This document shows positions 11,538 through 32,000 of a DNA stretch of 32,000 bases, piece after piece; the stretch's first letter is position 1; each line of letters opens with the position of its first letter. The notes beneath the pieces were generated by a model. That model had not been told where the DNA came from. It saw nothing but the letters and a program-made list of their open reading frames with translations, and did not search any database. Source of the stretch: Candidatus Saccharimonas aalborgensis (GTDB lineage: Bacteria; Patescibacteriota; Saccharimonadia; Saccharimonadales; Saccharimonadaceae); NCBI RefSeq assembly GCF_000392435.1, contig NC_021219.1, positions 180,001 through 212,000 on the forward strand, given 5' to 3'. The translations under genes and the position numbers were made by a program.

Positions 11538-13144
11538 TGCTTTTCTCCTTCATCATCCAACGCTGCATAGACGCCGTTTGTCCAGCCAAAGCCATCCTGA
11601 ACCTCATACTCTCCGCCACCACCCAGTTCTCCGGGATGAACGACGTTGTATTTTTCAATCATTTTTTGATACTTTGCATACACTAAGTCGTTTGCGAGTA
11701 GCCAACGGCGTCGAATTTCATTGGCAAGTTCATGATACCCATATTCCCTCAGGCCGTGGATTGCCACCCACTGAAGAGGCGCCCAGCCATTTGGTGCATC
11801 CCACTGCTGTCCGCTTGTAACAAGGGTTGTTACAAGTCCACCGGGCTTCAGAAAGTCGGTTTCAATTCGCTTCGCTAAAAAGGCTGCTTGCTCCTTCGTA
11901 GCAATTTTTGTATAGAGAGGAAACAATCCTGCCAAGGTTACTCGTCCGCTTGAATTATATGTCGACGTGTCATAATCACAAAAAAACCGTTCCGATTCAT
12001 CCCAGCAATATCGCCGAATAGTCTCTGCTCGCCGCTCAGCAGCTTTTCGAAACGACGTAGCCAGGAGGGGCTGCTTGATAAGTGTGTAGGCTTCTGCGAT
12101 GGTGGATTCAAGCGTATAAAGCATACTGTTGAGGTCAATTGCCGCCATGTTTGTGGTCTGAATTGATTGAATTTCATCCGCCACGCGAAACCAGCGTGAG
12201 CTAAAATCCCAACCACTCTCAGCGCCTGCCCGTAAGTTAAGATAGAGCTGTTCTTTAGCGTTCTCGTCACTGATATTCTGAGCTGTTTGTCGGTCCTCAC
12301 GGCTCATCTCGGGACGTGGTGTGTGCCTATCATCAAAGTATCGCCCAAGCAGCGCACCGTTTGGCATCCGTACTAATCGATTGTGGAGCGTTGGGGTGCT
12401 CTGCTTCATCGCCTCCCGTCGTCCGTGCGTCCAAAAACGGTATTCGATAAGCAAATATGGAAGGAACTCAGCGTATGTCCGCGTGCGCCCCCTACGCTTC
12501 GCTAGCAATATTATCATTTGAGCAAAAAACGGCGGCTGGGAGCGACTAAGGAAATAGCTGCGGCTAGCATTGGGGATCCTCCCATACTTTCGTAGCATAT
12601 AGGCATGGTTTCGTACCATACCAAGAAGTATGTCCCACTTATCGTCAGCAGCAAGACCGAGCATGATAAAGTAACTATCCCAATAAAACTGTTCGTCAAA
12701 CCTTCCCCCCGGCACGACATACGTATAGGGGAGTGCGAGTAACGAACCGTGTTGTTTTCTATTGGTACGTTCTAGGTAGGGCCATAGTTGCCGTATATGT
12801 TCACGCGCAGTCGCCGCAGTAGCAGGCAAACTCCCTGACTTCTTGTTTAGGATAGGCTGTGCCTCAAAGTTAGTATCTACGAAGTCCTTGAGGGAAAAAC
12901 CAGCCTGTTGCCGCTGCACTTCATATTGTTTTTTTATTTTTTTGCCCTTTGGAACCATATCAACAAATCGTTTTCCATCGCCCAAAACTTGAGTAACTTG
13001 AACATCTTTAAGAAGATCACCATAGCTATCCTCGGGACTCTGAGGCGTTCGGCCCAGGGTACCCGCCACTGCAACATATGTCGATTTCACTTTTTCGACA
13101 TGACGGCGAGATGTTTGTTTTTTTCGCAAAATGCGCCTAAACAT
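11534..13144 (-). CDS. trehalase (GH37)
   Basis: Both trehalase signatures are present: PGGRFDEQFYWDSYF and QWDAPNGWAPLQW. Its stop overlaps the downstream start (ATGA). Confidence 0.9.
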   Translation of the reverse strand: MFRRILRKKQTSRRHVEKVKSTYVAVAGTLGRTPQSPEDSYGDLLKDVQVTQVLGDGKRFVDMVPKGKKIKKQYEVQRQQAGFSLKDFVDTNFEAQPILNKKSGSLPATAATAREHIRQLWPYLERTNRKQHGSLLALPYTYVVPGGRFDEQFYWDSYFIMLGLAADDKWDILLGMVRNHAYMLRKYGRIPNASRSYFLSRSQPPFFAQMIILLAKRRGRTRTYAEFLPYLLIEYRFWTHGRREAMKQSTPTLHNRLVRMPNGALLGRYFDDRHTPRPEMSREDRQTAQNISDENAKEQLYLNLRAGAESGWDFSSRWFRVADEIQSIQTTNMAAIDLNSMLYTLESTIAEAYTLIKQPLLATSFRKAAERRAETIRRYCWDESERFFCDYDTSTYNSSGRVTLAGLFPLYTKIATKEQAAFLAKRIETDFLKPGGLVTTLVTSGQQWDAPNGWAPLQWVAIHGLREYGYHELANEIRRRWLLANDLVYAKYQKMIEKYNVVHPGELGGGGEYEVQDGFGWTNGVYAALDDEGEKQ

Positions 13145-20523: not shown

Positions 20524-21276
20524 CTAAGCCCCTTGCGTTTGGCTGGTTTTTTGTGAAGACGTACGTGTTGCAAGTTGTCTCTGTCGATAATATTCAGGCA
20601 GCACCACCCCGACCAGCGCAACAGCCAGCAGAACAGCAAAGCCGCACATAATCGATGGGATGCCCTTGATTGTGGCGGGGTCGACAATATTTACGGCCGT
20701 AGTAGGCACGATAAACACGAGATAGCCGGCTGCCAGACCTCTGAGCGCACGACTGATATGAGGAGCCGAGGCTTTCTTTGCGTGTGATAAACAATAGAAC
20801 GTTCCAGCCAATAGCCAGCCATAGTAGTAGAACGCGTACCAGCCAATCGCCATGGGAGCAGACTGGAAAATAACATAATTACCCAAGCATGCGCTTGAAG
20901 AAATGCCGTGTCCTGTCAAAGCAAAGAATCCAGCAAAGAGTGCGGCGGATCCATAGGCGGCCATCAGCATCGTACGATTACGACGTCCGGCAATGCGTGA
21001 CGCAAGATGAAAGCCGAGTGGTGGTAACAAAGTAATTGCAACATAGCCTATGCGTGCCCACGATAAGCTATCGACCCCAAAGCTTCCTTCACATATGTTG
21101 TACTCAGCAAGTTGAAATACGGCAAGGAAGAATAAGATCGCGATAGAAAGCTTTGAAACAGCATCAAGTGTGTAGCGCCACCCTACATACAGTGCGAGCC
21201 CTATCTCGATCATAAATGTTGCTAGCATCACTGGTGGCGAAAAGCATGACATTTGCAGTGGTTTGTAGTATCGCAT
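20524..21276 (-). CDS. hypothetical polytopic membrane protein (first gene of the operon with the ABC exporter)
   Basis: ORF track 20524..21339; about 7 hydrophobic segments. I moved the start to ATG 21276, which sits 6 nt after an extended -10. Confidence 0.6.
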   Translation of the reverse strand: MRYYKPLQMSCFSPPVMLATFMIEIGLALYVGWRYTLDAVSKLSIAILFFLAVFQLAEYNICEGSFGVDSLSWARIGYVAITLLPPLGFHLASRIAGRRNRTMLMAAYGSAALFAGFFALTGHGISSSACLGNYVIFQSAPMAIGWYAFYYYGWLLAGTFYCLSHAKKASAPHISRALRGLAAGYLVFIVPTTAVNIVDPATIKGIPSIMCGFAVLLAVALVGVVLPEYYRQRQLATRTSSQKTSQTQGA

Positions 21277-21282
21277 GTGCCT

Positions 21283-21291
21283 ATCATAGCA
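21283..21291 (-). promoter_or_regulatory. extended -10 element TGCTATGAT, leaderless configuration
   Basis: Reverse complement of 21274..21291 reads TGCTATGATaggcacATG. Confidence 0.5.
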
Positions 21292-21321
21292 AATCTCTCC
21301 TTTTACGCACAGCAATCGTAA

Positions 21322-21342
21322 TTGGTGTACTATTGACACTAA
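21322..21342. promoter_or_regulatory. candidate NrtR operator (imperfect) overlapping the nadE -35
   Basis: TTgGTGTA-ctatt-gACACTAA. Confidence 0.45.
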
Positions 21343-21361
21343 ATTTTCTGTCTCGTATATT
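21333..21361 (+). promoter_or_regulatory. nadE promoter: -35 TTGACA, 17-nt spacer, -10 TATATT
   Basis: TTGACA at 21333..21338 and TATATT at 21356..21361. Confidence 0.6.
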
Positions 21362-21381
21362 TAGTGTATAAAGTACACTAA
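21361..21381. promoter_or_regulatory. candidate NrtR operator (perfect palindrome) at the nadE -10/TSS
   Basis: TTAGTGTA-taaag-TACACTAA. The perfect inverted repeat extends to 21360..21382. Confidence 0.65.
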
Positions 21382-21397: not shown

Positions 21398-22201
21398 ATG
21401 CGCGAACGACAACATGAAATTATCGAGAAGCTCGGTGTCAAACCAATAATAGATCCACGCGAAGAAGTAGAACAACGTACCCACCTCCTTGCCAGCTATT
21501 TGCGCGAGCATCACAGAGCCGGATACACACTAGGCATATCAGGTGGGCAGGATTCACTTCTCGTGGGGCTACTCGCGCAGCGGGCGGTCATGCTCAATCG
21601 AACCCTTGGCTATGACTCGACATTTTCGGCAATACTACTCCCCTATGGCACACAGGCCGATAGAGCTGATGCGCTGCTAGCAATTGATACGATCAAGCCT
21701 GATCATACTATCGATTTTAATATTGCCTCCGTTGTGGACGCGTTTGTATCCTCATATGATGCCGCAAGTGGGGAATCATTGACCGATTTTCACAAAGGAA
21801 ACGTCAAAGCGCGAACTCGGATGATGGCACAATATGCAGTTGCCGGCATGCATGATCAAGTCGTACTCAGTACAGACCATGCCGCTGAAGCCTTGGTTGG
21901 ATTCTTTACAAAATTTGGTGATGGTGCCGCCGATGTCGCTCCTATCGCCACGCTCAATAAACGTCAAGGTAGACAAGTGCTACGCTTCCTTGATGTACCC
22001 GAGGTATTTATTACAAAAGTGCCGACTGCTGACCTGCTCGATGCTACTCCTTCTCAGCCAGACGAAGTTGAACTAGGAATGACCTACGAAGATTTCGATG
22101 ATTATCTCGAAGGTTTTGAAGTTCCCGAAGAGAAAGCTATTGCTATTGAGCGCAGGCATGCTGCCATCTTGCACAAGCTCGAGCCAATTGTGAGGTTTTA
22201 G
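21398..22201 (+). CDS. nadE: NH3-dependent NAD+ synthetase
   Basis: PP-loop GISGGQDS; 267 aa, the typical length for single-domain NadE. Confidence 0.9.
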   Translation: MRERQHEIIEKLGVKPIIDPREEVEQRTHLLASYLREHHRAGYTLGISGGQDSLLVGLLAQRAVMLNRTLGYDSTFSAILLPYGTQADRADALLAIDTIKPDHTIDFNIASVVDAFVSSYDAASGESLTDFHKGNVKARTRMMAQYAVAGMHDQVVLSTDHAAEALVGFFTKFGDGAADVAPIATLNKRQGRQVLRFLDVPEVFITKVPTADLLDATPSQPDEVELGMTYEDFDDYLEGFEVPEEKAIAIERRHAAILHKLEPIVRF

Positions 22202-22250: not shown

Positions 22251-22256
22251 TAGACT
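22251..22256 (+). promoter_or_regulatory. -10-like TAGACT, 6 nt upstream of the nrtR ATG (leaderless configuration)
   Basis: Read directly: TTGTAGACTtagtgtATG. The same TAGACT hexamer serves as the -10 of the pnuC promoter. Confidence 0.4.
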
Positions 22257-22276
22257 TAGTGTATGAAGTACAGTAG
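22256..22276. promoter_or_regulatory. candidate NrtR operator covering the nrtR TSS and start codon (autoregulation)
   Basis: TTAGTGTA-tgaag-TACAgTAg. The ATG at 22263 lies inside the left arm. Confidence 0.5.
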
Positions 22277-22940
22277 CCCCTATGTCCCACCTACACTGAC
22301 CGTTGACGCTGTTATATTTCAACTTCACGGTGATAAACTAGAGGTTCTCCTCACCCAGCGTGAAAGCGATCCTTTCAAGGGGGAGTGGGCACTACCGGGT
22401 GGATACAATGCTGTCGGCAGCACTACCATTGAGGCACTTACTGAAATTGTTTTGCGCAAGACGGGCGTTGATCTCGACAACGATCTCGCTTATATCGAAC
22501 AGCTCTATACGTTTGACACGGTCGCTCGCGATCCGAGAGGACATGCCGTATCTGTTACCTATATGGGCTGTAGTCGAGCTATCACCCTCGGTACCGGCAG
22601 CCAGCATGCTGAGTTTTTTCCCGTCGATAGGCTTCCCAATCTCGCCTATGACCATGCGAGCATCATCACCTATGCCCAGGAACGTCTCGCAGCAAAGCTC
22701 ACCTATACCAATGCCGTGTCGGGGTTACTCGACAAGAAGTTTACGCTTTCCCAGCTGCAAACAGCATATGAGGCGGTGATGGGACGCTTGCTCGATAAAC
22801 GAAACTTCCGCAAAAAGTTTCTCACGCTCAATCTCATTCATGAGACGCCAGATACCTGGCGAGATGGTGCGCATCGCCCAGCAAAGTTATATGCATTCAA
22901 TTCGTCAAGCCTTGAGGTTCTTTCTCGAAGTTTCGACTAG
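22263..22940 (+). CDS. nrtR: NrtR-type transcriptional regulator (degenerate Nudix domain plus C-terminal winged helix)
   Basis: Nudix fold with a degenerate box (PGGYNAVGSTTIEALTEIVLRKTGV, which lacks the REx2EE signature). C-terminal FTLSQLQTAYEAVMGRLLDKRNFRKKF is typical of NrtR. Confidence 0.8.
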   Translation: MKYSSPYVPPTLTVDAVIFQLHGDKLEVLLTQRESDPFKGEWALPGGYNAVGSTTIEALTEIVLRKTGVDLDNDLAYIEQLYTFDTVARDPRGHAVSVTYMGCSRAITLGTGSQHAEFFPVDRLPNLAYDHASIITYAQERLAAKLTYTNAVSGLLDKKFTLSQLQTAYEAVMGRLLDKRNFRKKFLTLNLIHETPDTWRDGAHRPAKLYAFNSSSLEVLSRSFD

Positions 22941-23041: not shown

Positions 23042-23062
23042 ATAGCGTTGACAATACACTAT
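23042..23062. promoter_or_regulatory. candidate NrtR operator (weak) overlapping the pnuC -35
   Basis: aTAGcGTt-gacaa-TACACTAt. Confidence 0.35.
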
Positions 23063-23076
23063 TCGCTTGGTAGACT
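23048..23076 (+). promoter_or_regulatory. pnuC promoter: -35 TTGACA, 17-nt spacer, -10 TAGACT
   Basis: TTGACA at 23048..23053 and TAGACT at 23071..23076. Confidence 0.55.
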
Positions 23077-23084
23077 GAAATTAG

Positions 23085-23105
23085 TTAGTGTAATATGTAC
23101 AATTA
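23085..23105. promoter_or_regulatory. candidate NrtR operator just downstream of the pnuC TSS
   Basis: TTAGTGTA-atatg-TACAaTtA. Confidence 0.5.
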
Positions 23106-23125
23106 GTACGGGAAGGAACACTCCA

Positions 23126-23845
23126 ATGAAAAAACTATTAACCACTAGTCGGGTCAGCAATACGCGAGATATCGCGGAAAGTGTATTTATAGGAGTTATC
23201 CTGACTACGCTTTCCTATGTCGTAGGTCTAAACGCCGGATGGGTTTCAAGTCTTAATCTGCTCGAGATTTTTGCCGTTTTTACCTCCTACTCAAGCACTT
23301 ATCTCTGCGTAAAAGAGCGACGCGCAAATTACCCGATCGGCGCTATCAGTACGGCCGCGTATATGCTACTGTTTCTGCAAAATGGGCTACTTGCCAGCGC
23401 CATTCTCAATGCTTATCTCACCCCCACGCTCATCTATGGGTGGATCAGGTGGCGCAAAGACAAGCAAACACGACCTGTCACCCACGTGCAACTTCAGTGG
23501 ATACCTGTCTATCTAGCCGTAGCTGGTGTCGGCTACGCTGGAGCAGCACTCATCAGTCAACAATTTGGCGGCACTATGGCATGGACGGATTCGATGATTT
23601 TGGCTGCTACCATTCTGGCTCAATTTTTGCTTGACAACAAAAAGCTAGAAAACTGGGTTGTATGGGCCGTTGTCAATGTGTTTGCTATCTATACCTACGC
23701 CACCACTGGACTACCACTTGTCGCCTTCCAATATGTGTTTTTCCTCCTCAACACAGTGTATGGATTTATGATGTGGCAACGGAGTAAAAAGATAACCGAC
23801 ACTCTACCGACTCACGCTGATACCGGCGTTCCCATGGAGGCATAG
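23126..23845 (+). CDS. pnuC: nicotinamide riboside transporter PnuC
   Basis: IYGWIRWRK and AQFLLDNKKLENWVVWAVVNV motifs; about 7 TM. ATG 23126 has a GGAAGGA SD; the track TTG start at 23048 lies inside the promoter. Confidence 0.85.
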   Translation: MKKLLTTSRVSNTRDIAESVFIGVILTTLSYVVGLNAGWVSSLNLLEIFAVFTSYSSTYLCVKERRANYPIGAISTAAYMLLFLQNGLLASAILNAYLTPTLIYGWIRWRKDKQTRPVTHVQLQWIPVYLAVAGVGYAGAALISQQFGGTMAWTDSMILAATILAQFLLDNKKLENWVVWAVVNVFAIYTYATTGLPLVAFQYVFFLLNTVYGFMMWQRSKKITDTLPTHADTGVPMEA

Positions 23846-23846
23846 C

Positions 23847-24386
23847 ATGAAACCATTTACCGTTACCATCATTGGCGCAGAGTCCACCGGCAAAACGAGT
23901 CTTTCTCGCCAGCTTGCCGATACAATGGATGGTGACTGGGTTCCTGAATTCGCCCGCCCCTACCTTGAAGTTACCGACGGCATCACAAATATCAGCTCGA
24001 TGCTCGCAATATGGCAAGGGCAACTAGCACTGCAACACGTTGCCACACAGTCGCCGCGACCGTACGTTATCCTCGACACCGATCTCTATGCAACTGTTGG
24101 TTACTGGAAGCTCCCGCAGAGCAAATCGTATCTTGGCGCATGTCCTGAAAAACTTATAGAAGACGCCGCATTATACCAATCAAACCTTTATCTCGTCACG
24201 CAAAGTAACATTCCCTTTGAGCCAGATGCGCTACGCTATGGCGGCGACAAACGAGAAAGCACAGATGAGTATTGGATACGACTCTGCAAAAGCTATCAAC
24301 TACCCTACCATGTTATATCGGCAGCTAACCGTGATGAGCGCTTAGCTGAAGCAATTGGCATCATAAACGAAAGGAGTGCACAATGA
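23847..24386 (+). CDS. stand-alone NadR-type ribosylnicotinamide-kinase-like P-loop protein (intact Walker A)
   Basis: IIGAESTGKTSL Walker A, ILDTD, and FEPDALRYGGDKRES (LID-like). It can be aligned to the C-terminal domain of NadR. Confidence 0.75.
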   Translation: MKPFTVTIIGAESTGKTSLSRQLADTMDGDWVPEFARPYLEVTDGITNISSMLAIWQGQLALQHVATQSPRPYVILDTDLYATVGYWKLPQSKSYLGACPEKLIEDAALYQSNLYLVTQSNIPFEPDALRYGGDKRESTDEYWIRLCKSYQLPYHVISAANRDERLAEAIGIINERSAQ

Positions 24387-25354
24387 AAGGTCTTGTTATC
24401 GGAAAGTTTTACCCACCTCACCTTGGGCACAACTACCTTATCGATACCGCCCTCAAGAACTGTGAGTCTGTCGACGTGCTCGTCGTTGATAACCCGGCAT
24501 ATCACATTGCTGCCGAGAAGCGACGCGAGTGGCTTCAGGCTCGCCACCCTACTGCCCACGTTACCATTATCCCTGATATCAATAATGACGATGACTCGGT
24601 GGCGTGGGCCGCACATACGATGCAGTTTCTCGGCTACAAACCTGATGTTGTCTATAGCTCCGAAGACTATGGTGACCCATGGGCGCGGTATATGGGTGCG
24701 CAAAGTATCGTTGTCGACAAAGCACGTACTGCCGTACCAATTTCAGGCACAAAAGTTCGTGAGGATATGCTTGCTTCCTGGCAGTATCTTTCGGACGAGA
24801 CAAAGGCCGGACTAGCACTTCGCATCGTCATCGTCGGTGCCGAGTCAACTGGTACAACGACTCTGTCGAGAGACCTAGCCGCCGCGCTCAACGCACCGTG
24901 GGCACCCGAGATTGGTAGATACTACACCGAATCGATTTTGACGACCGACAAAGCATGGTGCGACGATGACTTTTATCGAATCGGTAAATTACAACAAAAC
25001 TACGAGGCGGAAATGGCAAAACGCAGTGACGGCGTTGTCGTGTGTGATACCAATGCGGTCGCGACAGAACTCTGGCAACGCCGCTATATGGGGCGTACTA
25101 CGAAGGCCATGCACGCTATTGCCGCCCAGGATAAAGCTGATCTTTATATTATTACCGGCGATGAAATCCCGTTTGTACAAGATGGTATCCGCGACGGTGA
25201 GCACATCAGACATCGCATGCACCAATGGTTTATCGGCCATATCAAAAAAACAGGAATCCCTTACATCATTGTTTCTGGAACGCGAAGGCAACGTCTCCGC
25301 AAAGCCCATCAAGTCTCGAAAAAAATGATACGAGAGAAAAAAGTTATTTTTTAA
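24383..25354 (+). CDS. nadR: NadR-like NMN adenylyltransferase fused to an RNK-like domain with a degenerate Walker A; no HTH
   Basis: GKFYPPHLGH (HxGH) and ISGTKVR (ISSTxxR-like) mark the NMNAT domain. The second domain has VGAESTGTTTL, where the P-loop Lys is Thr. ATG overlaps the upstream stop (ATGA). Confidence 0.8.
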   Translation: MKGLVIGKFYPPHLGHNYLIDTALKNCESVDVLVVDNPAYHIAAEKRREWLQARHPTAHVTIIPDINNDDDSVAWAAHTMQFLGYKPDVVYSSEDYGDPWARYMGAQSIVVDKARTAVPISGTKVREDMLASWQYLSDETKAGLALRIVIVGAESTGTTTLSRDLAAALNAPWAPEIGRYYTESILTTDKAWCDDDFYRIGKLQQNYEAEMAKRSDGVVVCDTNAVATELWQRRYMGRTTKAMHAIAAQDKADLYIITGDEIPFVQDGIRDGEHIRHRMHQWFIGHIKKTGIPYIIVSGTRRQRLRKAHQVSKKMIREKKVIF

Positions 25355-25361
25355 TAAAAAA

Positions 25362-25382
25362 TTAGTGTTCAAATCACACTAA
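25362..25382. promoter_or_regulatory. candidate NrtR operator upstream of pncA
   Basis: TTAGTGTt-caaat-cACACTAA. The perfect 8-bp arms are ATTAGTGT/ACACTAAT, 18 nt upstream of ATG 25400. Confidence 0.65.
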
Positions 25383-25399: not shown

Positions 25400-26125
25400 A
25401 TGAAAACAAGTAAAGAAACGAGCAGGATATATGGCGAAGTAGTCGCCATCAATGTTGACTTACAAAATGACTTTTGTCCGGGCGGAAGCCTCGCTGTTGA
25501 GGACGGAGATCGAGTGATCGAGCCGATAAATAGGCTCAGTGCTTGGGTGCGAGAACACGGCGGTATGGTCGTCGACACCGCCGATGAACATCCGAAAGTA
25601 ACAAATCATTTCGCTGAGTATGGGGGGACATGGCCGGTCCACTGTGTCGTAGATACCCCAGGTGCCGCCCTACACCGCAATCTGACCATCGAACCATCAG
25701 ATGCCCTAGCCCGAAAAGGTGTAGCGCCTAACGACGCGGGGTACTCAGGCTATGACGCTGTCTTAAAACCACGTGCTACCGTGCCCAACGATATCGTCAG
25801 TGATCTCCCAGAAGAGGAACAGACGGTCGGCAGATTCCTGGAAAGAGTGGTGCGAGTTAACCGTAGTCTTGGTTCAAGGACACTTATCCTCCTCACAGGA
25901 CTGGCTGGTGACTACTGCGTATCGGCAACGGGACGACCCATCCTTGAGAAGCTCCCATCAGAATGGACAGACCTCATCTGGGTGAGTGATGCGATTCGGA
26001 GCGTCAATCAAGAAAATGGTGAGATTGAAAAACAAGCCTCGATTGAAGCAGGTGCCTTGGTTATGACAACGGAAGAAATCTTAGCCGGAGGCATTGTCAT
26101 TGATCGTGGGCGCCTGGAGAACTAG
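25400..26125 (+). CDS. pncA: nicotinamidase (isochorismatase family)
   Basis: VDLQNDFCPGGSLAV and LTGLAGDYCVSAT (catalytic Cys). AAAGGAG SD. Confidence 0.85.
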   Translation: MKTSKETSRIYGEVVAINVDLQNDFCPGGSLAVEDGDRVIEPINRLSAWVREHGGMVVDTADEHPKVTNHFAEYGGTWPVHCVVDTPGAALHRNLTIEPSDALARKGVAPNDAGYSGYDAVLKPRATVPNDIVSDLPEEEQTVGRFLERVVRVNRSLGSRTLILLTGLAGDYCVSATGRPILEKLPSEWTDLIWVSDAIRSVNQENGEIEKQASIEAGALVMTTEEILAGGIVIDRGRLEN

Positions 26126-26127
26126 CC

Positions 26128-27360
26128 ATGGAACGTCTCCTCAACCTTCAAGACCAATATAAGTTCCCGATGGGACAGTTTATCTATGAACAAGAACCCG
26201 CTGCAGAAGTAACCTTCAAAATGGTGAATCGCAAGGCAAAAAGTGGTATGCGCATCGCAGATTATGTTTCGGTTCAAGAGCTACAAGAATATTACGATAG
26301 CCTGCGCAGCCTCCGTTATACGCCCGAGGAGCTGGCGATCATCGAACGACAGGAGGGCAAGGACTACACACCTGAATTCCTTGGGTACTTAGCCGCATTC
26401 CGTTTACCGGAAATTGAGGTCTCAATTGATCCAGCGACGAATGATTTGACCGCCGTCACAAGCGGAAAGTGGAATGACGTTTCACAAGCTGAGATTCCAA
26501 TCCTCAAAGCCATCCCCACACTCTACTACCCTCGTTATCTTGCCGATCACGGCATAAGTAAACGTGAGTGGTTTCGTGGCGGCGATGAGCGTGGCACAGA
26601 GTTTATCAACTATATAACGTCGAGTGGCGCAGCTACGGCCGAGTTCGGCACACGACGCGCAGCATCGAGTGAATGGCAGGATCACATGGTAGGACGTATG
26701 GTCGAGGAATGCCCTGGGCAATTTATCGGCACCTCAAATCCCTGGCTCGCAGCCAAATATGGGGTCAAAGAAGTGGGCACAAACGCCCACGAGCTAGGAT
26801 CGGTCTTTGGCGCACTTGAGGGTAGCCGCGGCGGAAATCCACTCGATGGCCAAGTACGCCTGTTTCGCGAATGGATGACGCGCTTCCCGATGATGCGGGC
26901 TGCGCTTATCGACACGTTTACAAGTGATGTCGCCCTTCATGACATGGACCGAACCCTATACGAGCAGACTGAGCTCTATCGTATAGACTCTGGGGTAGAA
27001 GAAAAAATTGGTCAAAAAGTTATTGCGATGCTCGAACGTGTCGGTATCGATCCAACGACACGCACCCTCATGTTTACCAATAGTTTGAGCGGTAAACGTG
27101 TCGCGGAACTACAGCACCTATTTGGCGGGCAAACGCGTGTTGCCTTTGGCGTTGGCGGTGGCTCAACTAACAATATGCCCTATACTCCCGGTCTCAATAT
27201 CGTCTGTAAGGCCGTCGAGGTAAATAGCATAGGCACAGTAAAGTTAAGTGACGATGATGGAAAACACATGGGCAATCCGGCCGATGTCGACCGTTACCTA
27301 ACTCTGTGTGCACAGCGACTCGCCGAACCTGCTGCATGGGACATGACGAGTGCGCTATGA
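26128..27360 (+). CDS. pncB: nicotinate phosphoribosyltransferase
   Basis: DQYKFPMGQ N-terminal motif, FGTRRA, and NAHELG-type region. 410 aa. Confidence 0.85.
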   Translation: MERLLNLQDQYKFPMGQFIYEQEPAAEVTFKMVNRKAKSGMRIADYVSVQELQEYYDSLRSLRYTPEELAIIERQEGKDYTPEFLGYLAAFRLPEIEVSIDPATNDLTAVTSGKWNDVSQAEIPILKAIPTLYYPRYLADHGISKREWFRGGDERGTEFINYITSSGAATAEFGTRRAASSEWQDHMVGRMVEECPGQFIGTSNPWLAAKYGVKEVGTNAHELGSVFGALEGSRGGNPLDGQVRLFREWMTRFPMMRAALIDTFTSDVALHDMDRTLYEQTELYRIDSGVEEKIGQKVIAMLERVGIDPTTRTLMFTNSLSGKRVAELQHLFGGQTRVAFGVGGGSTNNMPYTPGLNIVCKAVEVNSIGTVKLSDDDGKHMGNPADVDRYLTLCAQRLAEPAAWDMTSAL

Positions 27361-28856
27361 TAAAAGAGACTATGCCAAAACAGCCAATGTTCCCCACCGA
27401 CGAGGAAAAGAGTCGCTTTAGACAGCTCGGCTACGAGCTAGATTCGCACGGAAGACCGCTCCATCCATGGCGCGATCGTCTTCCGCACCTAGCGGAAGGA
27501 AAGGGCTTCTTCTACCATTGGGGACCAAACTATACTGTAGATCCGGTCGTTATTTCCCAGACAACAACACCCCGCCTCCTCCTCATCCAAAGGGGCGATA
27601 CGGGACGATGGGCGTTTCCTGGCGGATTTTTAGAGACAAATGAAGACATCCATACTGCAGGGCTGCGAGAACTCCAGGAAGAAACCGGCCTTGCACAGGT
27701 TGACTCATCGGGGAGAGTGGTCTATACGGGCGTCGTCAACGATCGACGCGCGACACTCCATGCCTGGCCCGAAACGTCGGCAATTTTATGGCGCACTCAT
27801 ACAGCCTATCCAGTACAGGCAGGAGATGATGCAGAGCACGCCGAGTGGGTTCCACTTTGCCACGCGCGAACACTGCTTGCCGATAGTTCGCATGGCGATA
27901 TCCTCGCCGAAGCAATAAAAACTCACGGTAGTCTTCATGAAAAAGTAGAGTATTACGCCGATCAAAGCATTATTCGTGATGCGCAGGGCGGTCATATGGC
28001 ATATAGCCGCGTAATCATCAGCCCGCCCGAAGGAGTGCCAATCTTTGTTAAGCATCACAACAAAAACACGATCACTGATGATATCCGGGCAGATCATTTA
28101 CGTCGATATCTCAAAAAGGAATATGCTGTTTATAAGCACCTTGAGACCCACGGTGTACCTGTACCAAACGACGTTATGCTGATCGACGACCATACGCTGC
28201 TAATGGAAGCGCTTGATCCCAATAGCGGCTGGTATTGGCGGGCACCGGGTGCACCTCATAAACGCGAAGCTTATATCGAAGATATTTTGCGCAGTCTCAC
28301 GACAGTAGCGTCGACTCCCCCTGTGGACACTGCGGATATCGCATCGAGCTACACCACCCTACACCAGGAGGGGTGGAACGTGTACCCCGACCATCAACAG
28401 ATGATTAGGGAGAAGTTAGCAGCATCACAAATCGACGGGAGCAATGAGCTCATAGCAGCACTCGATACTATCTACGCGCGATACTCAGCCCAGCATCCTC
28501 CAGAGCTTACCGCTTTTTGTCACCATGACTTTCGTCAATCTAACGTTGCCTGGCATCCAGCGCACGGTACCAAGATTGTTGACTGGAGTTGGGCTGATCG
28601 CGGGCCACGACTGGCCGATACAACCAGTTTTCTTATCGATCTCTACAAGTCCGGTCATGAGATTAGCCGCTATCAAGAATATGTTGATGAGTATCATGCA
28701 CTCGTGCTGATCGGTTTTTGGCTCGAACACAGCATATGGCCGCCAGCACCATCAAATCATCTGGTTCGTGAGCAACAACTCGCCTCGGCTATTGCTGCAT
28801 TTCGTCTGCTTGAAGAGATTCGACAAACTTCCGTACCTGAGAAAACGGCTTCATGA
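27357..28856 (+). CDS. fusion protein: NUDT9-like ADP-ribose pyrophosphatase (Nudix) plus an APH/choline-kinase-fold phosphotransferase
   Basis: N-terminal half: RPLHPW, WGPNYTVDPVV, canonical Nudix box GGFLETNEDIHTAGLRELQEETGL, NDRRATLHAWPET, QAGDDAEHAEWV. C-terminal half: FCHHDFRQSNV (HxDxxxxN) and KIVDWSWADRG. ATG 27357 overlaps the pncB stop (ATGA); the track start is 27306. Confidence 0.8.
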   Translation: MIKETMPKQPMFPTDEEKSRFRQLGYELDSHGRPLHPWRDRLPHLAEGKGFFYHWGPNYTVDPVVISQTTTPRLLLIQRGDTGRWAFPGGFLETNEDIHTAGLRELQEETGLAQVDSSGRVVYTGVVNDRRATLHAWPETSAILWRTHTAYPVQAGDDAEHAEWVPLCHARTLLADSSHGDILAEAIKTHGSLHEKVEYYADQSIIRDAQGGHMAYSRVIISPPEGVPIFVKHHNKNTITDDIRADHLRRYLKKEYAVYKHLETHGVPVPNDVMLIDDHTLLMEALDPNSGWYWRAPGAPHKREAYIEDILRSLTTVASTPPVDTADIASSYTTLHQEGWNVYPDHQQMIREKLAASQIDGSNELIAALDTIYARYSAQHPPELTAFCHHDFRQSNVAWHPAHGTKIVDWSWADRGPRLADTTSFLIDLYKSGHEISRYQEYVDEYHALVLIGFWLEHSIWPPAPSNHLVREQQLASAIAAFRLLEEIRQTSVPEKTAS

Positions 28857-29361
28857 GTTGTGCATATGTCCGCTCGTTTTCCTCTTGGCTCATCTCAGCA
28901 CGTGTAATATCATAGCCTTCGTTGATGAAAAATCTATCAAACCCAAATCCGTTGTCACCCCTAGGAGAGTCTGAGATTGTACCCGGGAGCTCACTGTCAA
29001 AGAACATCATATGCTCACCATCAAAGTAGCCAAATGTGCACCGAATTACTGCGCCACGATCTTCAAATCCATCAAGCATCCGACAACATGCTTCCTCACC
29101 TGCGTGTTCCACAAACCATTTTATGTATGGCCCCGGTAGGTCACCTAGTGCATTAAACGATAGACTTACATCCTCGACCAAGACAGGGCGCCTGACAAAC
29201 GCATAGGCTTGACGAAGTTTGTGCTCAACAATACTATGGAGGTCTGTCGACTGTAGTTCATCAAGATTTACTTTTTGATACTCGAGCGAAATGCCGAGCT
29301 GTCGAGATAAATAGTCCGCTTTATGCTGGTTTCCTGTGATGAATACTGGGAGCTTGCTCAT
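28789..29361 (-). CDS. rdgB: non-canonical purine NTP pyrophosphatase (RdgB/HAM1 family)
   Basis: FITGNQHKADY, VEDVSLSFNALGDLPGPYIKWF. ATG 29361 overlaps the permease stop (ATGA); the track start is 29430. Confidence 0.8.
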   Translation of the reverse strand: MSKLPVFITGNQHKADYLSRQLGISLEYQKVNLDELQSTDLHSIVEHKLRQAYAFVRRPVLVEDVSLSFNALGDLPGPYIKWFVEHAGEEACCRMLDGFEDRGAVIRCTFGYFDGEHMMFFDSELPGTISDSPRGDNGFGFDRFFINEGYDITRAEMSQEENERTYAQLMKPFSQVRKFVESLQADEMQQ

Positions 29362-30101
29362 TTTGTCTTTCTCTTTAGCGTCATGCCGGCCACCAGGAGT
29401 GCACAAACGATAAATGCGGCTACCGCCCATACATCACGCCACATTTCTGCCGATATATCGGTATTCTTCACTACTCCATTAAGGGCATCTACTGCATATG
29501 TTAGTGGCAAATAGTAGGCAATGGTTTCGAGTGTATCGGGTAGTTTATCGAGCGGGACAAAAAGTCCGCAGACAAGGATTTGAGGAAAAATAAGGGCCGG
29601 CATGAATTGCACCGCCTGAAACTCAGTTCGAGCAAATGCGCTCACAAATAGGCCAAGTGCTACACCCAGTAACGTATCAAGTAGCGCAACTACTACCACA
29701 AACCACTGAGGTCCAACCACATTGAGCCCAAGCCAGTATATCGCGACACTGCTCGTAATGAGCGACTGAATTGCACCAAACAACCCAAATGCTATGGCAT
29801 ATCCGATAATAATATCAAGCTTACCGGCCGGCATAGCCAGGAGACGTTCCATTGTGCCAGTGATACGCTCCCTCAGCGTCGTGATACTTGTTACAAGAAA
29901 CATAACCGTAAAAGGAAATATCCCTAGTAGTGCCGGACCAAAAAGATTAAACATTTTTGAATTATCGCTAAATATCCAATACAGCAGCGACATCAGGAGT
30001 GTTGGCGCCAAAAACATGAGAGCGATTGTTCGCTTGTCATGCCATAATTGCTCAATGATTCGCCATGCTGTTGCAAGAGTTACCCTCAAATGGTAGATCA
30101 T
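29358..30101 (-). CDS. ABC-2 type transporter permease
   Basis: Six hydrophobic segments, 247 aa. The start overlaps the ATPase stop (ATGA). Confidence 0.8.
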   Translation of the reverse strand: MIYHLRVTLATAWRIIEQLWHDKRTIALMFLAPTLLMSLLYWIFSDNSKMFNLFGPALLGIFPFTVMFLVTSITTLRERITGTMERLLAMPAGKLDIIIGYAIAFGLFGAIQSLITSSVAIYWLGLNVVGPQWFVVVVALLDTLLGVALGLFVSAFARTEFQAVQFMPALIFPQILVCGLFVPLDKLPDTLETIAYYLPLTYAVDALNGVVKNTDISAEMWRDVWAVAAFIVCALLVAGMTLKRKTK

Positions 30102-30824: not shown

Positions 30825-31472
30825 TCACCTCCTGCTTATCCGTATTGCTTCATCCAGAAACAGGAGTCCGGCATGTGTAGAGAGGGGTGAGTGGGGAGTT
30901 TTTGGAACAATAGAAATTGGTATGTTTCCCATACCTGCTGCATCGAGATTACTTCTTATTTCGGCAGGTGGAAAGAGTATGTCGTGCTCACCGCTCACAA
31001 TATGGATTGGAATGCCATCAAGAAACAACTCCTTGACCGGGTCCAAAATACGACATACTAGCCCGGCCTCATATTGTGCTCTTGCCTTGCTCGTGCCAGG
31101 TTTTATAGTGCGGATCAAAAAAGCATGGTTAAACAAAAGTCGAAGATCTGTAAAAAGTGACGTTATTTGATGAAGGAAGTTATGATTAACTCGACGCTGC
31201 AGCTCACTATACGGAGAAGGAGACCGTGTATATTCATGGGTATTCAGGCCCAAAGGTTGAAGCAGAATCAGCTGCTCCACGTTGTCGCGCATTTTTTGCA
31301 GATAAAGAGCCACTCCCCCGGCCGCCTGTGACTCGGCAATAATTGAAGCAGGCTGGCCGTATCGTCGCGTCAATTCGTCAACCATCGTCGCGGTATATCT
31401 CACAATAAAATCTGGAACGTCCGAACCATCCTTGTTTGCAAACCAATGCGGCGCGCCTGGTATCACCGCCAC
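30825..31472 (-). CDS. alpha/beta hydrolase, N-terminally short; the same frame continues upstream across a single TAG
   Basis: AESQAAG nucleophile-elbow-like motif, SGEHD, PKTPHSPL. GTG start at 31472. Upstream ORF 31500..31709 is in the same frame, separated only by the TAG at 31500..31502. Confidence 0.6.
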   Translation of the reverse strand: MAVIPGAPHWFANKDGSDVPDFIVRYTATMVDELTRRYGQPASIIAESQAAGGVALYLQKMRDNVEQLILLQPLGLNTHEYTRSPSPYSELQRRVNHNFLHQITSLFTDLRLLFNHAFLIRTIKPGTSKARAQYEAGLVCRILDPVKELFLDGIPIHIVSGEHDILFPPAEIRSNLDAAGMGNIPISIVPKTPHSPLSTHAGLLFLDEAIRISRR

Positions 31473-31656: not shown

Positions 31657-32000
31657 TTACTTATCAATGAGCGCGAGGAATGCCGTTTCATCAATAACCT
31701 TCGTACCATACGACTGAGCCTTTTTCAGTTTACTTGCACCAACCTTACCTCCGACAACCAGGTAATCTGTATCTTTACCGACTGTTGTCTGAAAGGTGCC
31801 GCCTAATGTCCGTATAAGATCAGCCGCCTCGTCACGTCCCATTGAAGTAAGCGTACCAGTCACAACAAATGACATATTTATCAACTTTCCTGATTTTTCT
31901 TCGTAGAAAGGAGTGACATCGTACTGCTCAAACTTAGAAAGTAGTAATTCGTTATCTTCATCAGCAAACCATGCGGCAACACTCTCGGCTACCACATCGC
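31657..32000 (-). CDS. ligA: NAD-dependent DNA ligase, C-terminal BRCT domain (gene continues past the window end)
   Basis: FVVTGTLTSMGRDEAADLIRTLGGTFQTTVGKDTDYLVVGGKVGASKLKKAQSYG is the LigA BRCT pattern. The frame is open to the window edge. Confidence 0.85.
   Translation of the reverse strand, partial: DVVAESVAAWFADEDNELLLSKFEQYDVTPFYEEKSGKLINMSFVVTGTLTSMGRDEAADLIRTLGGTFQTTVGKDTDYLVVGGKVGASKLKKAQSYGTKVIDETAFLALIDK

What the first reader, a model, noticed from the sequence alone, without database searches (positions are those of the whole stretch)
27357..28856. NUDT9-like ADP-ribose pyrophosphatase fused to an APH-fold kinase, coupled to pncA-pncB
Seen: this is one 500-aa ORF whose ATG overlaps the pncB stop (ATGA).

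The N-terminal half has a canonical Nudix box (GGFLETNEDIHTAGLRELQEETGL). It also has flanking motifs that, from memory, match the NUDT9 ADP-ribose pyrophosphatase family:
- RPLHPW
- WGPNYTVDPVV
- NDRRATLHAWPET
- QAGDDAEHAEWV

The C-terminal half has the catalytic loop HHDFRQSN and the metal-binding IVDWSWA. These are characteristic of the aminoglycoside/choline/methylthioribose-kinase fold.

Established: NrtR regulons commonly include ADPR pyrophosphatase and PRPP supply genes, and PncB needs PRPP.

Inference (two alternatives): the fusion could channel ADP-ribose into a phosphorylated ribose intermediate feeding PRPP/NaMN synthesis. Or the Nudix domain could act as an ADPR sensor for a kinase of unknown substrate. 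I do not recognise this domain combination as a characterised enzyme.
Basis: partly seen in the sequence, partly recalled or inferred. Interest (0 to 1): 0.7.

Follow-up and report, generated by a model that had tools for sequence, protein, structure and literature searches.

The report
ADP-ribose hydrolase fused to unknown kinase
The last gene of a vitamin-B3 (NAD) recycling operon in a tiny-genome Saccharibacteria bacterium joins an enzyme that very probably splits the NAD breakdown product ADP-ribose to a kinase of a small, uncharacterised family whose target is unknown.

Summary
Window 27357..28856 (+) is one intact ORF of 499 aa; NCBI starts it at the second ATG, 27372, giving 494 aa. The N-terminal half is a NUDT9-like Nudix domain with an invariant catalytic Nudix box. 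The C-terminal half is an APH/choline-kinase-fold kinase with all catalytic residues invariant.

It is not a frameshift artefact. More than 100 protein clusters, essentially all from Saccharibacteria, share the architecture. The two modules also occur as adjacent separate genes, fused in the reverse order, or singly.

When both modules are present they follow pncA-pncB. A 21-bp palindrome (candidate NrtR operator) lies upstream of pncA in 60 of 60 loci tested.

The ADP-ribose pyrophosphatase assignment is well supported. The kinase belongs to a small family: 200 representatives among 1.84 billion proteins. No characterised subfamily is close, so its substrate is unresolved.

My best guess (about 0.3) is that it phosphorylates the ribose-phosphate released from ADP-ribose to feed PncB with activated ribose. 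Against this, some Saccharibacteria keep pncA-pncB-Nudix with no kinase. A pyridine-riboside kinase is the main rival (about 0.2).

It is a new variant built from known enzyme folds, of moderate interest.

The parts
27357..28856 (+). Whole Nudix-kinase ORF (499 aa + stop). The alternative annotated start is ATG 27372 (494 aa).
27357..27941 (+). NUDT9-like Nudix (ADP-ribose pyrophosphatase) module, residues 1-195. Pfam NUDIX covers residues 65-179.
   Evidence: Pfam. NUDT9 1q33 E 1.2e-11. Foldseek 1qvj E 2.4e-11. Orthologous stand-alone Nudix genes align over this stretch.
27624..27692 (+). Nudix box G90-x5-E96-x7-R104-E105-L-Q-E108-E109-T-G-L, which is the catalytic metal-binding motif.
   Evidence: Read from the sequence. 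G89, G90, R104, E105, E108 and E109 are invariant in 50 homologues.
27954..28853 (+). APH/choline-kinase-fold kinase module, residues about 200-499. Pfam APH covers residues 244-446.
   Evidence: Pfam. Kinase-only AlphaFold model pLDDT 88.4. Foldseek hits to LicA, APH(3'), APH(4), MtnK and others at E about 1e-7 to 1e-8.
28521..28544 (+). Catalytic loop H389-H-D391-F-R-Q-S-N396 (Brenner motif HxDxxxxN).
   Evidence: H389, D391 and N396 are invariant.
28575..28595 (+). IVD409WSWA, the Mg-binding Asp equivalent to DFG.
26128..27360 (+). pncB, nicotinate phosphoribosyltransferase, immediately upstream. It is canonical (FGTRR and GTNAHE motifs).
25400..26125 (+). pncA, nicotinamidase, the first gene of the pncA-pncB-Nudix/kinase unit.
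25362..25382 (.). Candidate NrtR operator TTAGTGTTCAAATCACACTAA, 18 nt upstream of the pncA start.
   Evidence: Six sites in the window, all in NAD-cluster intergenic regions, against 0.89 expected. Present upstream of pncA in 60/60 related loci.
21322..21381 (.). Two candidate NrtR operators upstream of nadE (21322-21342 and 21361-21381).
22256..22276 (.). Candidate NrtR operator at the nrtR start.
23042..23105 (.). Two candidate NrtR operators upstream of pnuC (23042-23062 and 23085-23105).
22263..22940 (+). NrtR (Nudix-like sensor domain with a degenerate box, plus a winged-helix domain), the presumed ADPR-responsive repressor of the cluster.

Best explanation
The gene encodes a two-module enzyme that closes the ADP-ribose side of NAD recycling in Saccharibacteria. 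It is the last gene of an NrtR-controlled pncA-pncB operon.

Proposed steps:
1. When NAD is consumed, nicotinamide and ADP-ribose are released. ADP-ribose lifts NrtR repression. This is inferred from the NrtR family and from the operator-like palindromes.
2. PncA and PncB convert nicotinamide to nicotinate mononucleotide, a reaction that needs PRPP.
3. The N-terminal NUDT9-like Nudix module hydrolyses ADP-ribose to AMP and ribose-5-phosphate. This rests on homology, motif conservation and predicted fold.
4. The C-terminal kinase module uses ATP to phosphorylate that ribose-phosphate product, or the terminal ribose of ADP-ribose before cleavage. The likely site is the anomeric C1 hydroxyl, as the same fold does in 5-methylthioribose kinase. 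The product would be ribose-1,5-bisphosphate on the way to PRPP. The ribose of spent NAD would thus be handed back to PncB in a lineage reported to lack PRPP synthetase. This step is inference only.

How likely each part is: it is a real fused gene in the NAD operon, about 0.95. The Nudix half is an ADP-ribose pyrophosphatase, about 0.85. The kinase acts on the ribose-phosphate branch, about 0.3.
For: Reality of the fusion:
- More than 100 full-length homologues at 33-51% identity, essentially all Saccharibacteria.
- The AlphaFold model has pLDDT 94.3 and pTM 0.88, so the two domains pack in a defined way.

ADP-ribose pyrophosphatase assignment:
- NUDT9 is the best match both by sequence (E 1.2e-11) and by fold (E 2.4e-11). 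The shared motifs extend beyond the Nudix box: WGPN..DP, DxRxTxxAWxET and GDDA.
- The Nudix box is invariant.
- There is similarity to the NadM-Nudix ADPRases.

Kinase competence:
- K232, E255, H389, D391, N396 and D409 are invariant.

Functional coupling of the two modules:
- 39 loci have the Nudix-kinase fusion, 10 have split adjacent genes, 2 have the reverse-order fusion and 1 has a reverse-order split.
- All these kinases form one orthologous family, with the arrangements interleaved on the tree.

Coupling to PncB and NrtR:
- In 53 of the 69 kinase-seeded loci the kinase follows pncA-pncB, either directly or as part of the Nudix/kinase pair.
- Operator-like palindromes lie upstream of pncA in 60/60 loci.
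- An ADP-ribosylglycohydrolase and a histidine phosphatase belong to the same clusters, which gives an ADP-ribose theme.

PRPP logic:
- PncB keeps its PRPP and phospho-histidine motifs.
- NrtR regulons elsewhere carry a dedicated prs next to a phosphoribosyltransferase, and the authors propose ADPR to Rib-P to PRPP recycling (PMC2330246).
- A closed Saccharibacteria genome is reported to lack PRPP synthesis genes (PMC6031116).
- Methylthioribose kinase (MtnK), an APH-fold anomeric kinase of a 5-substituted ribose, is among the fold matches.
Against: - The kinase is dispensable for the operon. Six Saccharibacteria-type loci have pncA-pncB-Nudix with no kinase. Three of these are near-complete genomes on whose contigs no kinase hit was listed. 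Three further loci have neither module.
- Eight stand-alone kinases lie away from pncB and have no operator-like palindrome.
- A single phosphoryl transfer gives ribose-1,5-bisphosphate, not PRPP. No PhnN-like second kinase was found.
- The weak sequence affinities of the kinase are to thiamine and choline kinases, which act on cationic substrates. They are not to methylthioribose kinase.
- Absence of prs was not checked in the genomes that carry the fusion. It rests on one paper about one other genome.
- No structure with ligands and no biochemistry is available.
Confidence: 0.3

Rival explanations
1. The kinase is a pyridine-riboside kinase. It would convert nicotinate riboside or nicotinamide riboside to NaMN or NMN. 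This adds a PRPP-independent entry into NAD synthesis. The fused Nudix domain independently clears ADP-ribose, a non-sequential fusion like NadM-Nudix.
For: - The weak but recurrent best family match is thiamine kinase (20 of 32 members, best E 9e-7). Choline kinases and LicA also match by sequence and fold. These enzymes all phosphorylate a hydroxyl next to a cationic ring or amine, as in a pyridinium riboside.
- Many Trp residues are invariant or nearly so (W294, W340, W399, W410 and W412 invariant; W455 in at least 90% of sequences).
- A patchy, dispensable distribution suits an accessory salvage route.
- One stand-alone kinase lineage sits divergently next to a cytidylyltransferase-fold gene that I read as NadD (L047, L050).
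- ADPRase fusions to non-consecutive NAD enzymes are known (NadM-Nudix families).
- A CobC-like riboside-5'-phosphate phosphatase homologue is in the regulon.
Against: - It would be redundant with the NadR-type riboside-kinase domain, and with a second AAA_28 kinase encoded in the same cluster.
- Repeated fusion to the ADPRase in both orders suggests physical coupling to the ADPRase reaction.
- Scores to thiamine kinase are far below the family cut-off (17 bits against 299).
Confidence: 0.2
2. The pair is a damage-control module. Free ADP-ribose and ribose-5-phosphate glycate proteins. The Nudix domain would remove the glycating agent, or trim ADP-ribulosyl adducts. The kinase would act like fructosamine/ribulosamine-3-kinase to destabilise the adduct, with help from the neighbouring ADP-ribosylglycohydrolase and histidine phosphatase.
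For: - Fructosamine-3-kinase is an APH-fold enzyme and is among the fold matches (3f7w, 18% identity).
- ADP-ribosylglycohydrolase and a phosphatase are co-clustered and share operator-like sites.
- The module is dispensable, as repair functions often are.
- From my own knowledge, a Nudix-kinase fusion with a damage pre-emption role exists in thiamin metabolism (Tnr3).
Against: - There is no Pfam Fructosamin_kin hit, and the FN3K signature is not apparent by eye.
- The tight positional link is to pncB, not to the glycohydrolase.
- The idea is purely analogical.
Confidence: 0.08
3. The Nudix domain is a non-catalytic ADP-ribose sensor that switches the kinase on.
For: - NUDT9-H of vertebrate TRPM2, and NrtR, are ADP-ribose sensors built from the same fold.
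- The confident inter-domain packing (pTM 0.88) would allow allostery.
Against: - The Nudix box is complete and invariant across 50 homologues. Sensor versions, including the NrtR in this window, have degenerate boxes.
- Orthologous Nudix proteins exist alone after pncB, and kinases exist alone. Each module therefore works without the other.
Confidence: 0.05
4. The kinase has a function unrelated to NAD, such as antibiotic, choline or thiamine phosphorylation, and sits in the operon by chance.
For: - The Pfam family is the aminoglycoside phosphotransferase family. Fold matches include APH(3'), APH(4) and macrolide kinases.
- Stand-alone copies occur in unrelated contexts.
Against: - The same position after pncB is seen in more than 70 loci spanning 33-95% identity. 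There are fusions in two orientations and a conserved operator upstream.
- The family is confined to one reduced-genome lineage.
Confidence: 0.07

Closest known systems
NUDT9 (human mitochondrial ADP-ribose pyrophosphatase) and the NUDT9-H domain of the choanoflagellate TRPM2 chanzyme
   Same: It is the best sequence and fold match. It shares the Nudix box and the flanking WGPN..DP, DPRxTxNAWxET and GDDA motifs, and the catalytic Glu residues are intact.
   Different: Only about 55 residues precede the core, instead of the large NUDT9 N-terminal cap. It is fused to a kinase rather than free or attached to a channel. It is bacterial and sits in an operon with pncA-pncB. Activity is untested.
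NadM-Nudix bifunctional NMN adenylyltransferase/ADP-ribose pyrophosphatase (Synechocystis and Francisella type; PDB 2qjo, 2qjt)
   Same: An ADP-ribose pyrophosphatase domain is fused to another NAD-salvage enzyme. These families are typically NrtR-regulated. NCBIfam models of the family give the best hits for the Nudix half (8e-12).
   Different: The partner domain here is an APH-fold kinase, not a nucleotidyltransferase, and the Nudix domain is N-terminal. Scores are far below the equivalog cut-offs.
prs-nadV operons of NrtR regulons (Shewanella, Acinetobacter; Rodionov et al. 2008, PMC2330246)
   Same: A dedicated ribose-phosphate activating function is encoded next to a pyridine phosphoribosyltransferase under an ADPR-responsive repressor. 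The Nudix/kinase gene occupies the slot that prs occupies there.
   Different: There is no homology to PRPP synthetase. Any PRPP-supplying role of the kinase is hypothetical.
5-methylthioribose kinase MtnK and other anomeric sugar kinases of the APH fold (NahK)
   Same: They share the fold and catalytic motifs and appear among the fold matches. They provide the chemical precedent for C1 phosphorylation of a 5-substituted ribose.
   Different: Identity is only 12-14%, with TM-scores of 0.36-0.51. MtnK-specific features were not examined. They are no closer than choline or aminoglycoside kinases.
Thiamine kinase ThiK and choline kinases (LicA, ChoK)
   Same: They give the best, though weak, sequence-family and fold matches. 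They share a DW(S/E)(W/Y) motif after the Mg-binding Asp and an aromatic-rich C-lobe.
   Different: Scores are about 17 bits against a cut-off of 299. The family is therefore not a member, and the substrate cannot be transferred.
Phage NAD reconstitution pathway NARP1 (Adps + Namat), recalled from my own knowledge
   Same: ATP-dependent activation of ADP-ribose-derived ribose is coupled to a NAPRT/NAMPT-family enzyme to rebuild NAD.
   Different: Adps is a PRPP-synthetase homologue that pyrophosphorylates intact ADP-ribose. Here the Nudix box predicts cleavage of ADP-ribose, the kinase is a different fold, and PncB looks canonical. There are no PHROG or PADLOC links.

Membership tests
Nudix hydrolase superfamily | Nudix box GX5EX7REUXEEXGU, and a Pfam PF00293 score above the gathering cut-off | tested here: met
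   G90-FLETN-E96-DIHTAGL-R104-E105-L-Q-E108-E109-T-G-L. 50.8 bits against 21.1. G89, G90, R104, E105, E108 and E109 are invariant in 50 homologues; E96 is kept in the window and in the family consensus.
NUDT9-type ADP-ribose pyrophosphatase | Similarity to NUDT9 outside the Nudix box (substrate-binding motifs) | tested here: met
   1q33 E 1.2e-11 over residues 26-192, with WGPN..DP, DxRxTxxAWxET and GDDA shared. Foldseek 1qvj E 2.4e-11.
NUDT9-type ADP-ribose pyrophosphatase | Full N-terminal cap domain of NUDT9 | tested here: not met
   Only about 55 residues precede the core, and some orthologues have even fewer. TM-score normalised to NUDT9 is 0.44.
NUDT9-type ADP-ribose pyrophosphatase | Specific hydrolysis of ADP-ribose to AMP and ribose-5-phosphate | not testable with these tools
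   Needs an enzyme assay.
APH / choline-kinase-like phosphotransferase superfamily (PF01636) | Pfam score above the cut-off; beta3 Lys and alphaC Glu; catalytic loop HxDxxxxN; Mg-binding Asp; bilobal kinase fold | tested here: met
   51.7 bits against 23.2. K232, E255, H389, D391, N396 and D409 are invariant. The fold matches LicA, APH(3'), APH(4), MtnK and FN3K at E 3e-8 to 3e-7.
Thiamine kinase ThiK (TIGR02721) | Score at or above the curated equivalog cut-off | tested here: not met
   16-17 bits against 299.45.
Choline/ethanolamine kinase (PF01633) | Pfam gathering score | tested here: not met
   No hit for the window protein. 20.6 bits against 29 for a homologue. PDB choline kinases match at E about 0.03 with the family profile.
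5-methylthioribose kinase / anomeric sugar kinases | Specific sequence-family membership | tested here: not met
   No NCBIfam or Pfam hit. There is only generic fold similarity, TM 0.36-0.51 and 11-14% identity.
PRPP synthetase (Prs) / NARP1 Adps | Homology to the ribose-phosphate pyrophosphokinase fold | tested here: not met
   No such Pfam, NCBIfam, PHROG or PDB hit for any part of the protein.
NrtR regulon member | NrtR gene in the cluster and a conserved operator upstream of the transcription unit | tested here: met
   NrtR at 22263-22940. The palindrome TTAGTGT-N7-ACACTAA lies at 25362 upstream of pncA. The window has six sites against 0.89 expected. 60/60 related loci have a site. Binding itself was not tested.
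NadM-Nudix bifunctional enzyme | NMN adenylyltransferase domain fused to the Nudix domain | tested here: not met
   Only the Nudix part aligns (profile positions about 210-323). Scores are 45 bits against a cut-off of 449.

The most novel reading that the evidence does not exclude
The kinase is a new APH-fold ribose-5-phosphate (or ADP-ribose) 1-kinase. Together with the fused ADP-ribose pyrophosphatase, it would give Saccharibacteria a PRPP-synthetase-independent route from spent NAD to ribose-1,5-bisphosphate and on to PRPP. That would close a complete NAD recycling loop and explain how a lineage reported to lack prs can run PncB.
Probability: 0.2. Interest if true: 0.8.

Novelty: new variant of a known kind. 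Interest (0 to 1): 0.55.

Why it matters
Saccharibacteria and other CPR bacteria have about 1-Mb genomes with many unexplained metabolic gaps. How they keep cofactors such as NAD supplied is largely unknown.

This gene is a conserved, regulon-embedded, uncharacterised kinase family physically tied to ADP-ribose breakdown and to nicotinate phosphoribosyltransferase.

If it turns ADP-ribose-derived ribose phosphate into an activated donor, it would be a new way to make or bypass PRPP, and a new enzyme activity for the APH fold. If it is a pyridine-riboside kinase, it would be a third, unrelated family of such kinases.

Either way, it gives a concrete, clonable candidate from a closed genome (CP065017.1). 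Natural controls exist in the form of operons with Nudix only, kinase only, or neither.

Tried and rejected
Hypotheses rejected:
- Frameshift or missed stop. Rejected because the fusion recurs in more than 100 clusters. Where the modules are separate, the split recurs in about 10 independent MAGs with clean stop/start junctions.
- Anti-phage defence or phage NAD-reconstitution module. No relevant PADLOC or PHROG hits.
- PncB being a disguised Namat-like enzyme. It aligns end to end with solved NAPRTases and keeps FGTRR and GTNAHE.

Attempts to place the kinase in a characterised subfamily:
- A family profile against PDB sequences gave only E of about 0.03 or weaker.
- NCBIfam gave only sub-threshold ThiK, APH(3') and CotS hits.
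- Foldseek against PDB showed all APH-fold kinases equally distant.

Attempts to settle whether prs exists:
This is uninformative because only about 17 kb per genome is held.
- The literature gave one explicit statement of absence, for a different Saccharibacteria genome. Several other papers said nothing useful.
- The supplementary table of that paper is truncated and lists a hisG-like and a doubtful hpt-like gene.

Other checks:
- I looked for a PhnN-like second kinase. Only the AAA_28 (NadR riboside-kinase-like) gene at 23847-24386 was found, and it is not co-distributed with the fusion.
- Literature searches for a described Nudix-APH fusion found nothing.
- Model coordinates could not be inspected, so the relative position of the two active sites was not assessed.


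Full report

- Window 27357..28856 (+) is an uninterrupted ORF of 499 codons plus a stop.
- Its first ATG overlaps the pncB stop (ATGA at 27357-27360).
- The start is not certain. A second ATG at 27372 follows an AAAGAG. NCBI uses that ATG for the 100%-identical protein in the closed 936-kb genome CP065017.1, giving 494 aa and a start 12 nt after pncB. The window evidently comes from that genome or a near-identical one.
- Pfam places a NUDIX domain at residues 65-179 (E 2.2e-13) and an APH domain at residues 244-446 (E 1.3e-13). Both are well above their gathering scores.

**2. Context in the window**

The plus strand carries, in order:

| Gene | Coordinates |
|---|---|
| nadE | 21398-22201 |
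| nrtR | 22263-22940 |
| pnuC | about 23048-23845 |
| small AAA_28 (NadR riboside-kinase-like) gene | 23847-24386 |
| NadR-like adenylyltransferase + AAA_28 gene | 24383-25354 |
| pncA | 25400-26125 |
| pncB | 26128-27360 |
| Nudix/kinase gene | 27357-28856 |

- A Ham1/ITPase gene converges on the 3' end of the Nudix/kinase gene and overlaps it by 68 nt.
- A 21-bp palindrome, TTAGTGT-N7-ACACTAA, occurs six times in the 32-kb window, against 0.89 expected. Two sites lie upstream of nadE, one at nrtR, two upstream of pnuC and one 18 nt upstream of pncA.
- There is no such site between pncA, pncB and the Nudix/kinase gene, so these three form one unit.
- I interpret the palindrome as the NrtR operator. 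Binding was not tested.

**3. The Nudix half**

- Against all PDB sequences the best hit is human NUDT9 (1q33, E 1.2e-11, residues 26-192). The catalytically active NUDT9-H domain of the TRPM2 chanzyme comes next.
- The alignment shares WGPN..DP, PGG..D, RE..EE, DxRxTxNAWxET and GDDA..W.
- The AlphaFold model built on 50 homologues is confident (pLDDT 94.3, pTM 0.88). Its best fold match is NUDT9 with ribose-5-phosphate bound (1qvj, E 2.4e-11).
- NCBIfam models of NadM-Nudix ADP-ribose pyrophosphatases also match, but far below their cut-offs.
- In 50 homologues G89, G90, R104, E105, E108, E109, D129, R131 and W137 are invariant.
- By contrast, the NrtR in the same window has a degenerate box (…EALTEIVLRKTG…), as expected of a sensor.
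- The Nudix half is therefore most likely a working ADP-ribose pyrophosphatase. The 'sensor only' reading is disfavoured.
- It lacks most of the NUDT9 N-terminal cap.

**4. The kinase half**

- K232, E255, H389, D391, N396 and D409 are invariant, so it should be catalytically competent.
- A profile of the kinase domain was searched against 1.84 billion representative proteins. It finds only 200 sequences at E ≤ 1e-3 and 84 at E ≤ 1e-30. This is a small family.
- The sequences are either about 300 aa (stand-alone) or 440-560 aa (fusions).
- The distant tail is a paralogous Saccharibacteria 'phosphotransferase' group.
- No characterised subfamily is close:
  - The family profile hits PDB choline kinases only at E about 0.03.
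  - The most frequent NCBIfam match is thiamine kinase, at 16-17 bits against a cut-off of 299.
  - A kinase-only model (pLDDT 88.4) is about equally distant from LicA, APH(3'), APH(4), YtaA, MtnK, fructosamine-3-kinase, homoserine kinase and NahK. E values are 3e-8 to 1e-6, TM-scores 0.35-0.63 and identities 11-19%.
- The substrate therefore cannot be transferred by homology.

**5. Comparative genomics**

*Kinase-seeded scan.* A kinase-seeded scan of one genome per species returned 69 loci. All but a few generically labelled MAGs are Saccharibacteria, and one 'Acidobacteriota' bin is probably mis-binned. The loci classify as follows:

| Arrangement | Loci |
|---|---|
| Nudix-kinase fusion | 39 |
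| Adjacent separate Nudix and kinase genes with abutting stops and starts | 10 |
| Reverse-order kinase-Nudix fusion (e.g. L043 7989-9443, 484 aa) | 2 |
| Reverse-order split | 1 |
| Kinase only, directly after pncB (L037) | 1 |
| Kinase alone, no pncB within ±8 kb | 8 |
| Kinase at a contig start (context unknown) | 3 |
| Decayed remnant | 5 |

*Remnants.* The five remnants are a 61-aa 3' fragment lying next to gpmA.

*Position.* Wherever both modules are present they follow pncA-pncB, except in two loci where no pncB homologue was detected upstream (L046, where the contig starts just before the pair, and L058).

*Tree.* A neighbour-joining tree of 77 kinase domains shows one orthologous family. 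Stand-alone, split and permuted forms are interleaved with fused ones, which implies repeated fusion and fission.

*Operator.* The operator-like palindrome lies within 260 bp upstream of pncA in 60 of 60 loci that have pncA plus the kinase. It is rare in control loci, with 11 sites in 404 kb. No stand-alone kinase has one nearby.

*Accessory genes.* Related clusters often also carry, on the opposite strand and sharing the operator-bearing intergenic regions:
- a CobC-like histidine phosphatase (23 of 69 loci);
- an ADP-ribosylglycohydrolase (12 loci);
- a 523-aa protein with a methyltransferase domain (10 loci).

**6. The reciprocal test, seeded from PncB, changes the picture**

- Three near-complete Saccharibacteria genomes have pncA-pncB followed by an orthologous Nudix gene of 179-224 aa with an intact box and no kinase. 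They are CP064995.1 and two JGI contigs of 973 and 744 kb.
- None of the kinase homologues listed lies on contigs of those lengths.
- A metagenome scan seeded from PncB gave these Saccharibacteria-type operons, counted together with the three look-ups:

| Arrangement after pncB | Loci |
|---|---|
| Nudix-kinase fusion | 16 |
| Nudix only | 6 |
| Neither | 3 |

- In L091, pncB is followed directly by gpmA.
- 52 more distant PncB loci have neither module.
- The kinase is therefore common but not obligatory for the pncA-pncB-Nudix unit. The Nudix module is likewise not obligatory for the kinase.

**7. Mechanism**

What is shown:
- a real two-domain gene;
- catalytic motifs conserved in both halves;
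- specific NUDT9-type similarity;
- membership of a pncA-pncB transcription unit preceded by a conserved palindrome next to nrtR;
- repeated physical coupling of the two modules.

What follows from established knowledge:
- NrtR repressors are released by ADP-ribose.
- ADP-ribose arises only from NAD consumption.
- Nudix ADPRases give AMP and ribose-5-phosphate, which can be recycled through PRPP.
- Some NrtR regulons carry a dedicated prs next to nadV (PMC2330246).
- PncB here looks canonical and so should need PRPP.
- One closed Saccharibacteria genome was reported to lack PRPP synthesis genes (PMC6031116).

What is inferred:
- The kinase acts on the ribose-phosphate branch. It would phosphorylate C1 of ribose-5-phosphate or of the ADP-ribose terminal ribose, as MtnK does on 5-methylthioribose. 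This would produce ribose-1,5-bisphosphate en route to PRPP for PncB.
- I put this at about 0.3. The kinase is dispensable in some genomes, a second phosphorylation step is unaccounted for, and prs absence was not verified in the relevant genomes.

Rivals:
- The main rival (about 0.2) is a nicotinate/nicotinamide riboside kinase. This is suggested by the weak ThiK and choline-kinase affinity and the Trp-rich conserved surface. It is consistent with a patchy accessory distribution. It would, however, be redundant with the NadR-type kinases in the same cluster.
- Lesser rivals are a deglycation-type repair kinase, an allosteric sensor-kinase, and an unrelated hitch-hiking kinase.

**8. Novelty and value**

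- Both folds are well known, and ADPRase fusions to NAD enzymes have precedent (NadM-Nudix).
- This particular kinase family is small, confined to one lineage and uncharacterised.
- I found no description of it, or of a Nudix-APH fusion in NAD salvage, in the searchable literature.
- I rate it a new variant of a known kind, with interest about 0.55. It would be higher if the PRPP-bypass reading proves true.

Noticed in passing
window 21322-21381, 22256-22276, 23042-23105, 25362-25382: A 21-bp palindrome, TTAGTGT-N7-ACACTAA, marks every promoter region of the NAD cluster. Six sites are found against 0.89 expected. It is conserved upstream of pncA, often as a tandem pair about 43 bp apart, across Saccharibacteria. 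It is probably the NrtR operator of this lineage.
   Followed up: yes
window 23847-24386 and 24383-25354: The cluster has two riboside-kinase-like AAA_28 modules. One is a free-standing 179-aa gene between pnuC and the NadR-like gene. The other is the C-terminal domain of the NadR-like protein. The small gene is present in only some related loci. Why two are needed is unclear.
   Followed up: partly
L011 2348-5782 (-); L070 1910-3798 (-); L072 2643-4477 (-): Many related NAD clusters, though not this window, carry three further genes transcribed divergently from operator-bearing regions. These are a CobC-like histidine phosphatase (about 274 aa, 23 of 69 loci), an ADP-ribosylglycohydrolase (12 loci) and a 523-aa protein with a SAM-methyltransferase domain (10 loci). 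They are probably extra regulon members that process ADP-ribose derivatives.
   Followed up: partly
L063 8118-8303 (likewise L065-L067, L069); L091 6203-6858: There is reductive decay in some lineages. In five genomes only a 61-aa 3' fragment of the kinase survives next to gpmA, with pncA-pncB gone. In L091, pncA-pncB is kept but is followed directly by gpmA, a clean loss of the Nudix/kinase gene.
   Followed up: partly
P0178, P0190 (proteins): A paralogous kinase family of about 330 aa exists in Saccharibacteria, with motifs HSDVRSDN and VDWNW. One 90% cluster has 751 members. Its function and genomic context are unknown.
   Followed up: no
window 28789-28856: The 3' end of the Nudix/kinase gene overlaps the 3' end of the convergent Ham1/ITPase ORF (listed as 28789-29430, minus strand) by 68 nt. 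The order pnc operon, then Ham1, then NAD-dependent DNA ligase LigA is syntenic in several genomes. The C-terminal BRCT part of LigA lies at window 31657-31995 (-).
   Followed up: partly
window 3563-8716: A cell-wall gene run comprises a Mur-ligase-like gene, an alpha/beta hydrolase, a DegT-type aminotransferase and two tandem FemAB-family genes (6692-7693 and 7694-8716).
   Followed up: no
window 8754-13144: A sugar-utilisation set comprises two alpha-amylase-family genes on opposite strands and a trehalase (11534-13144, minus strand).
   Followed up: no
window 20524-21339 (-) and 30825-31472 (-): Two ORFs of 271 and 215 aa have no Pfam hit, and the first has no NCBIfam hit either. One lies directly upstream of the NAD cluster and the other directly downstream.
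   Followed up: no
L003 (JBLMYW010000023.1): A 7-kb contig labelled as an Acidobacteriota MAG carries a typical Saccharibacteria NadR, pncA, pncB, Nudix/kinase and Ham1 arrangement. It is probably a binning error.
   Followed up: no
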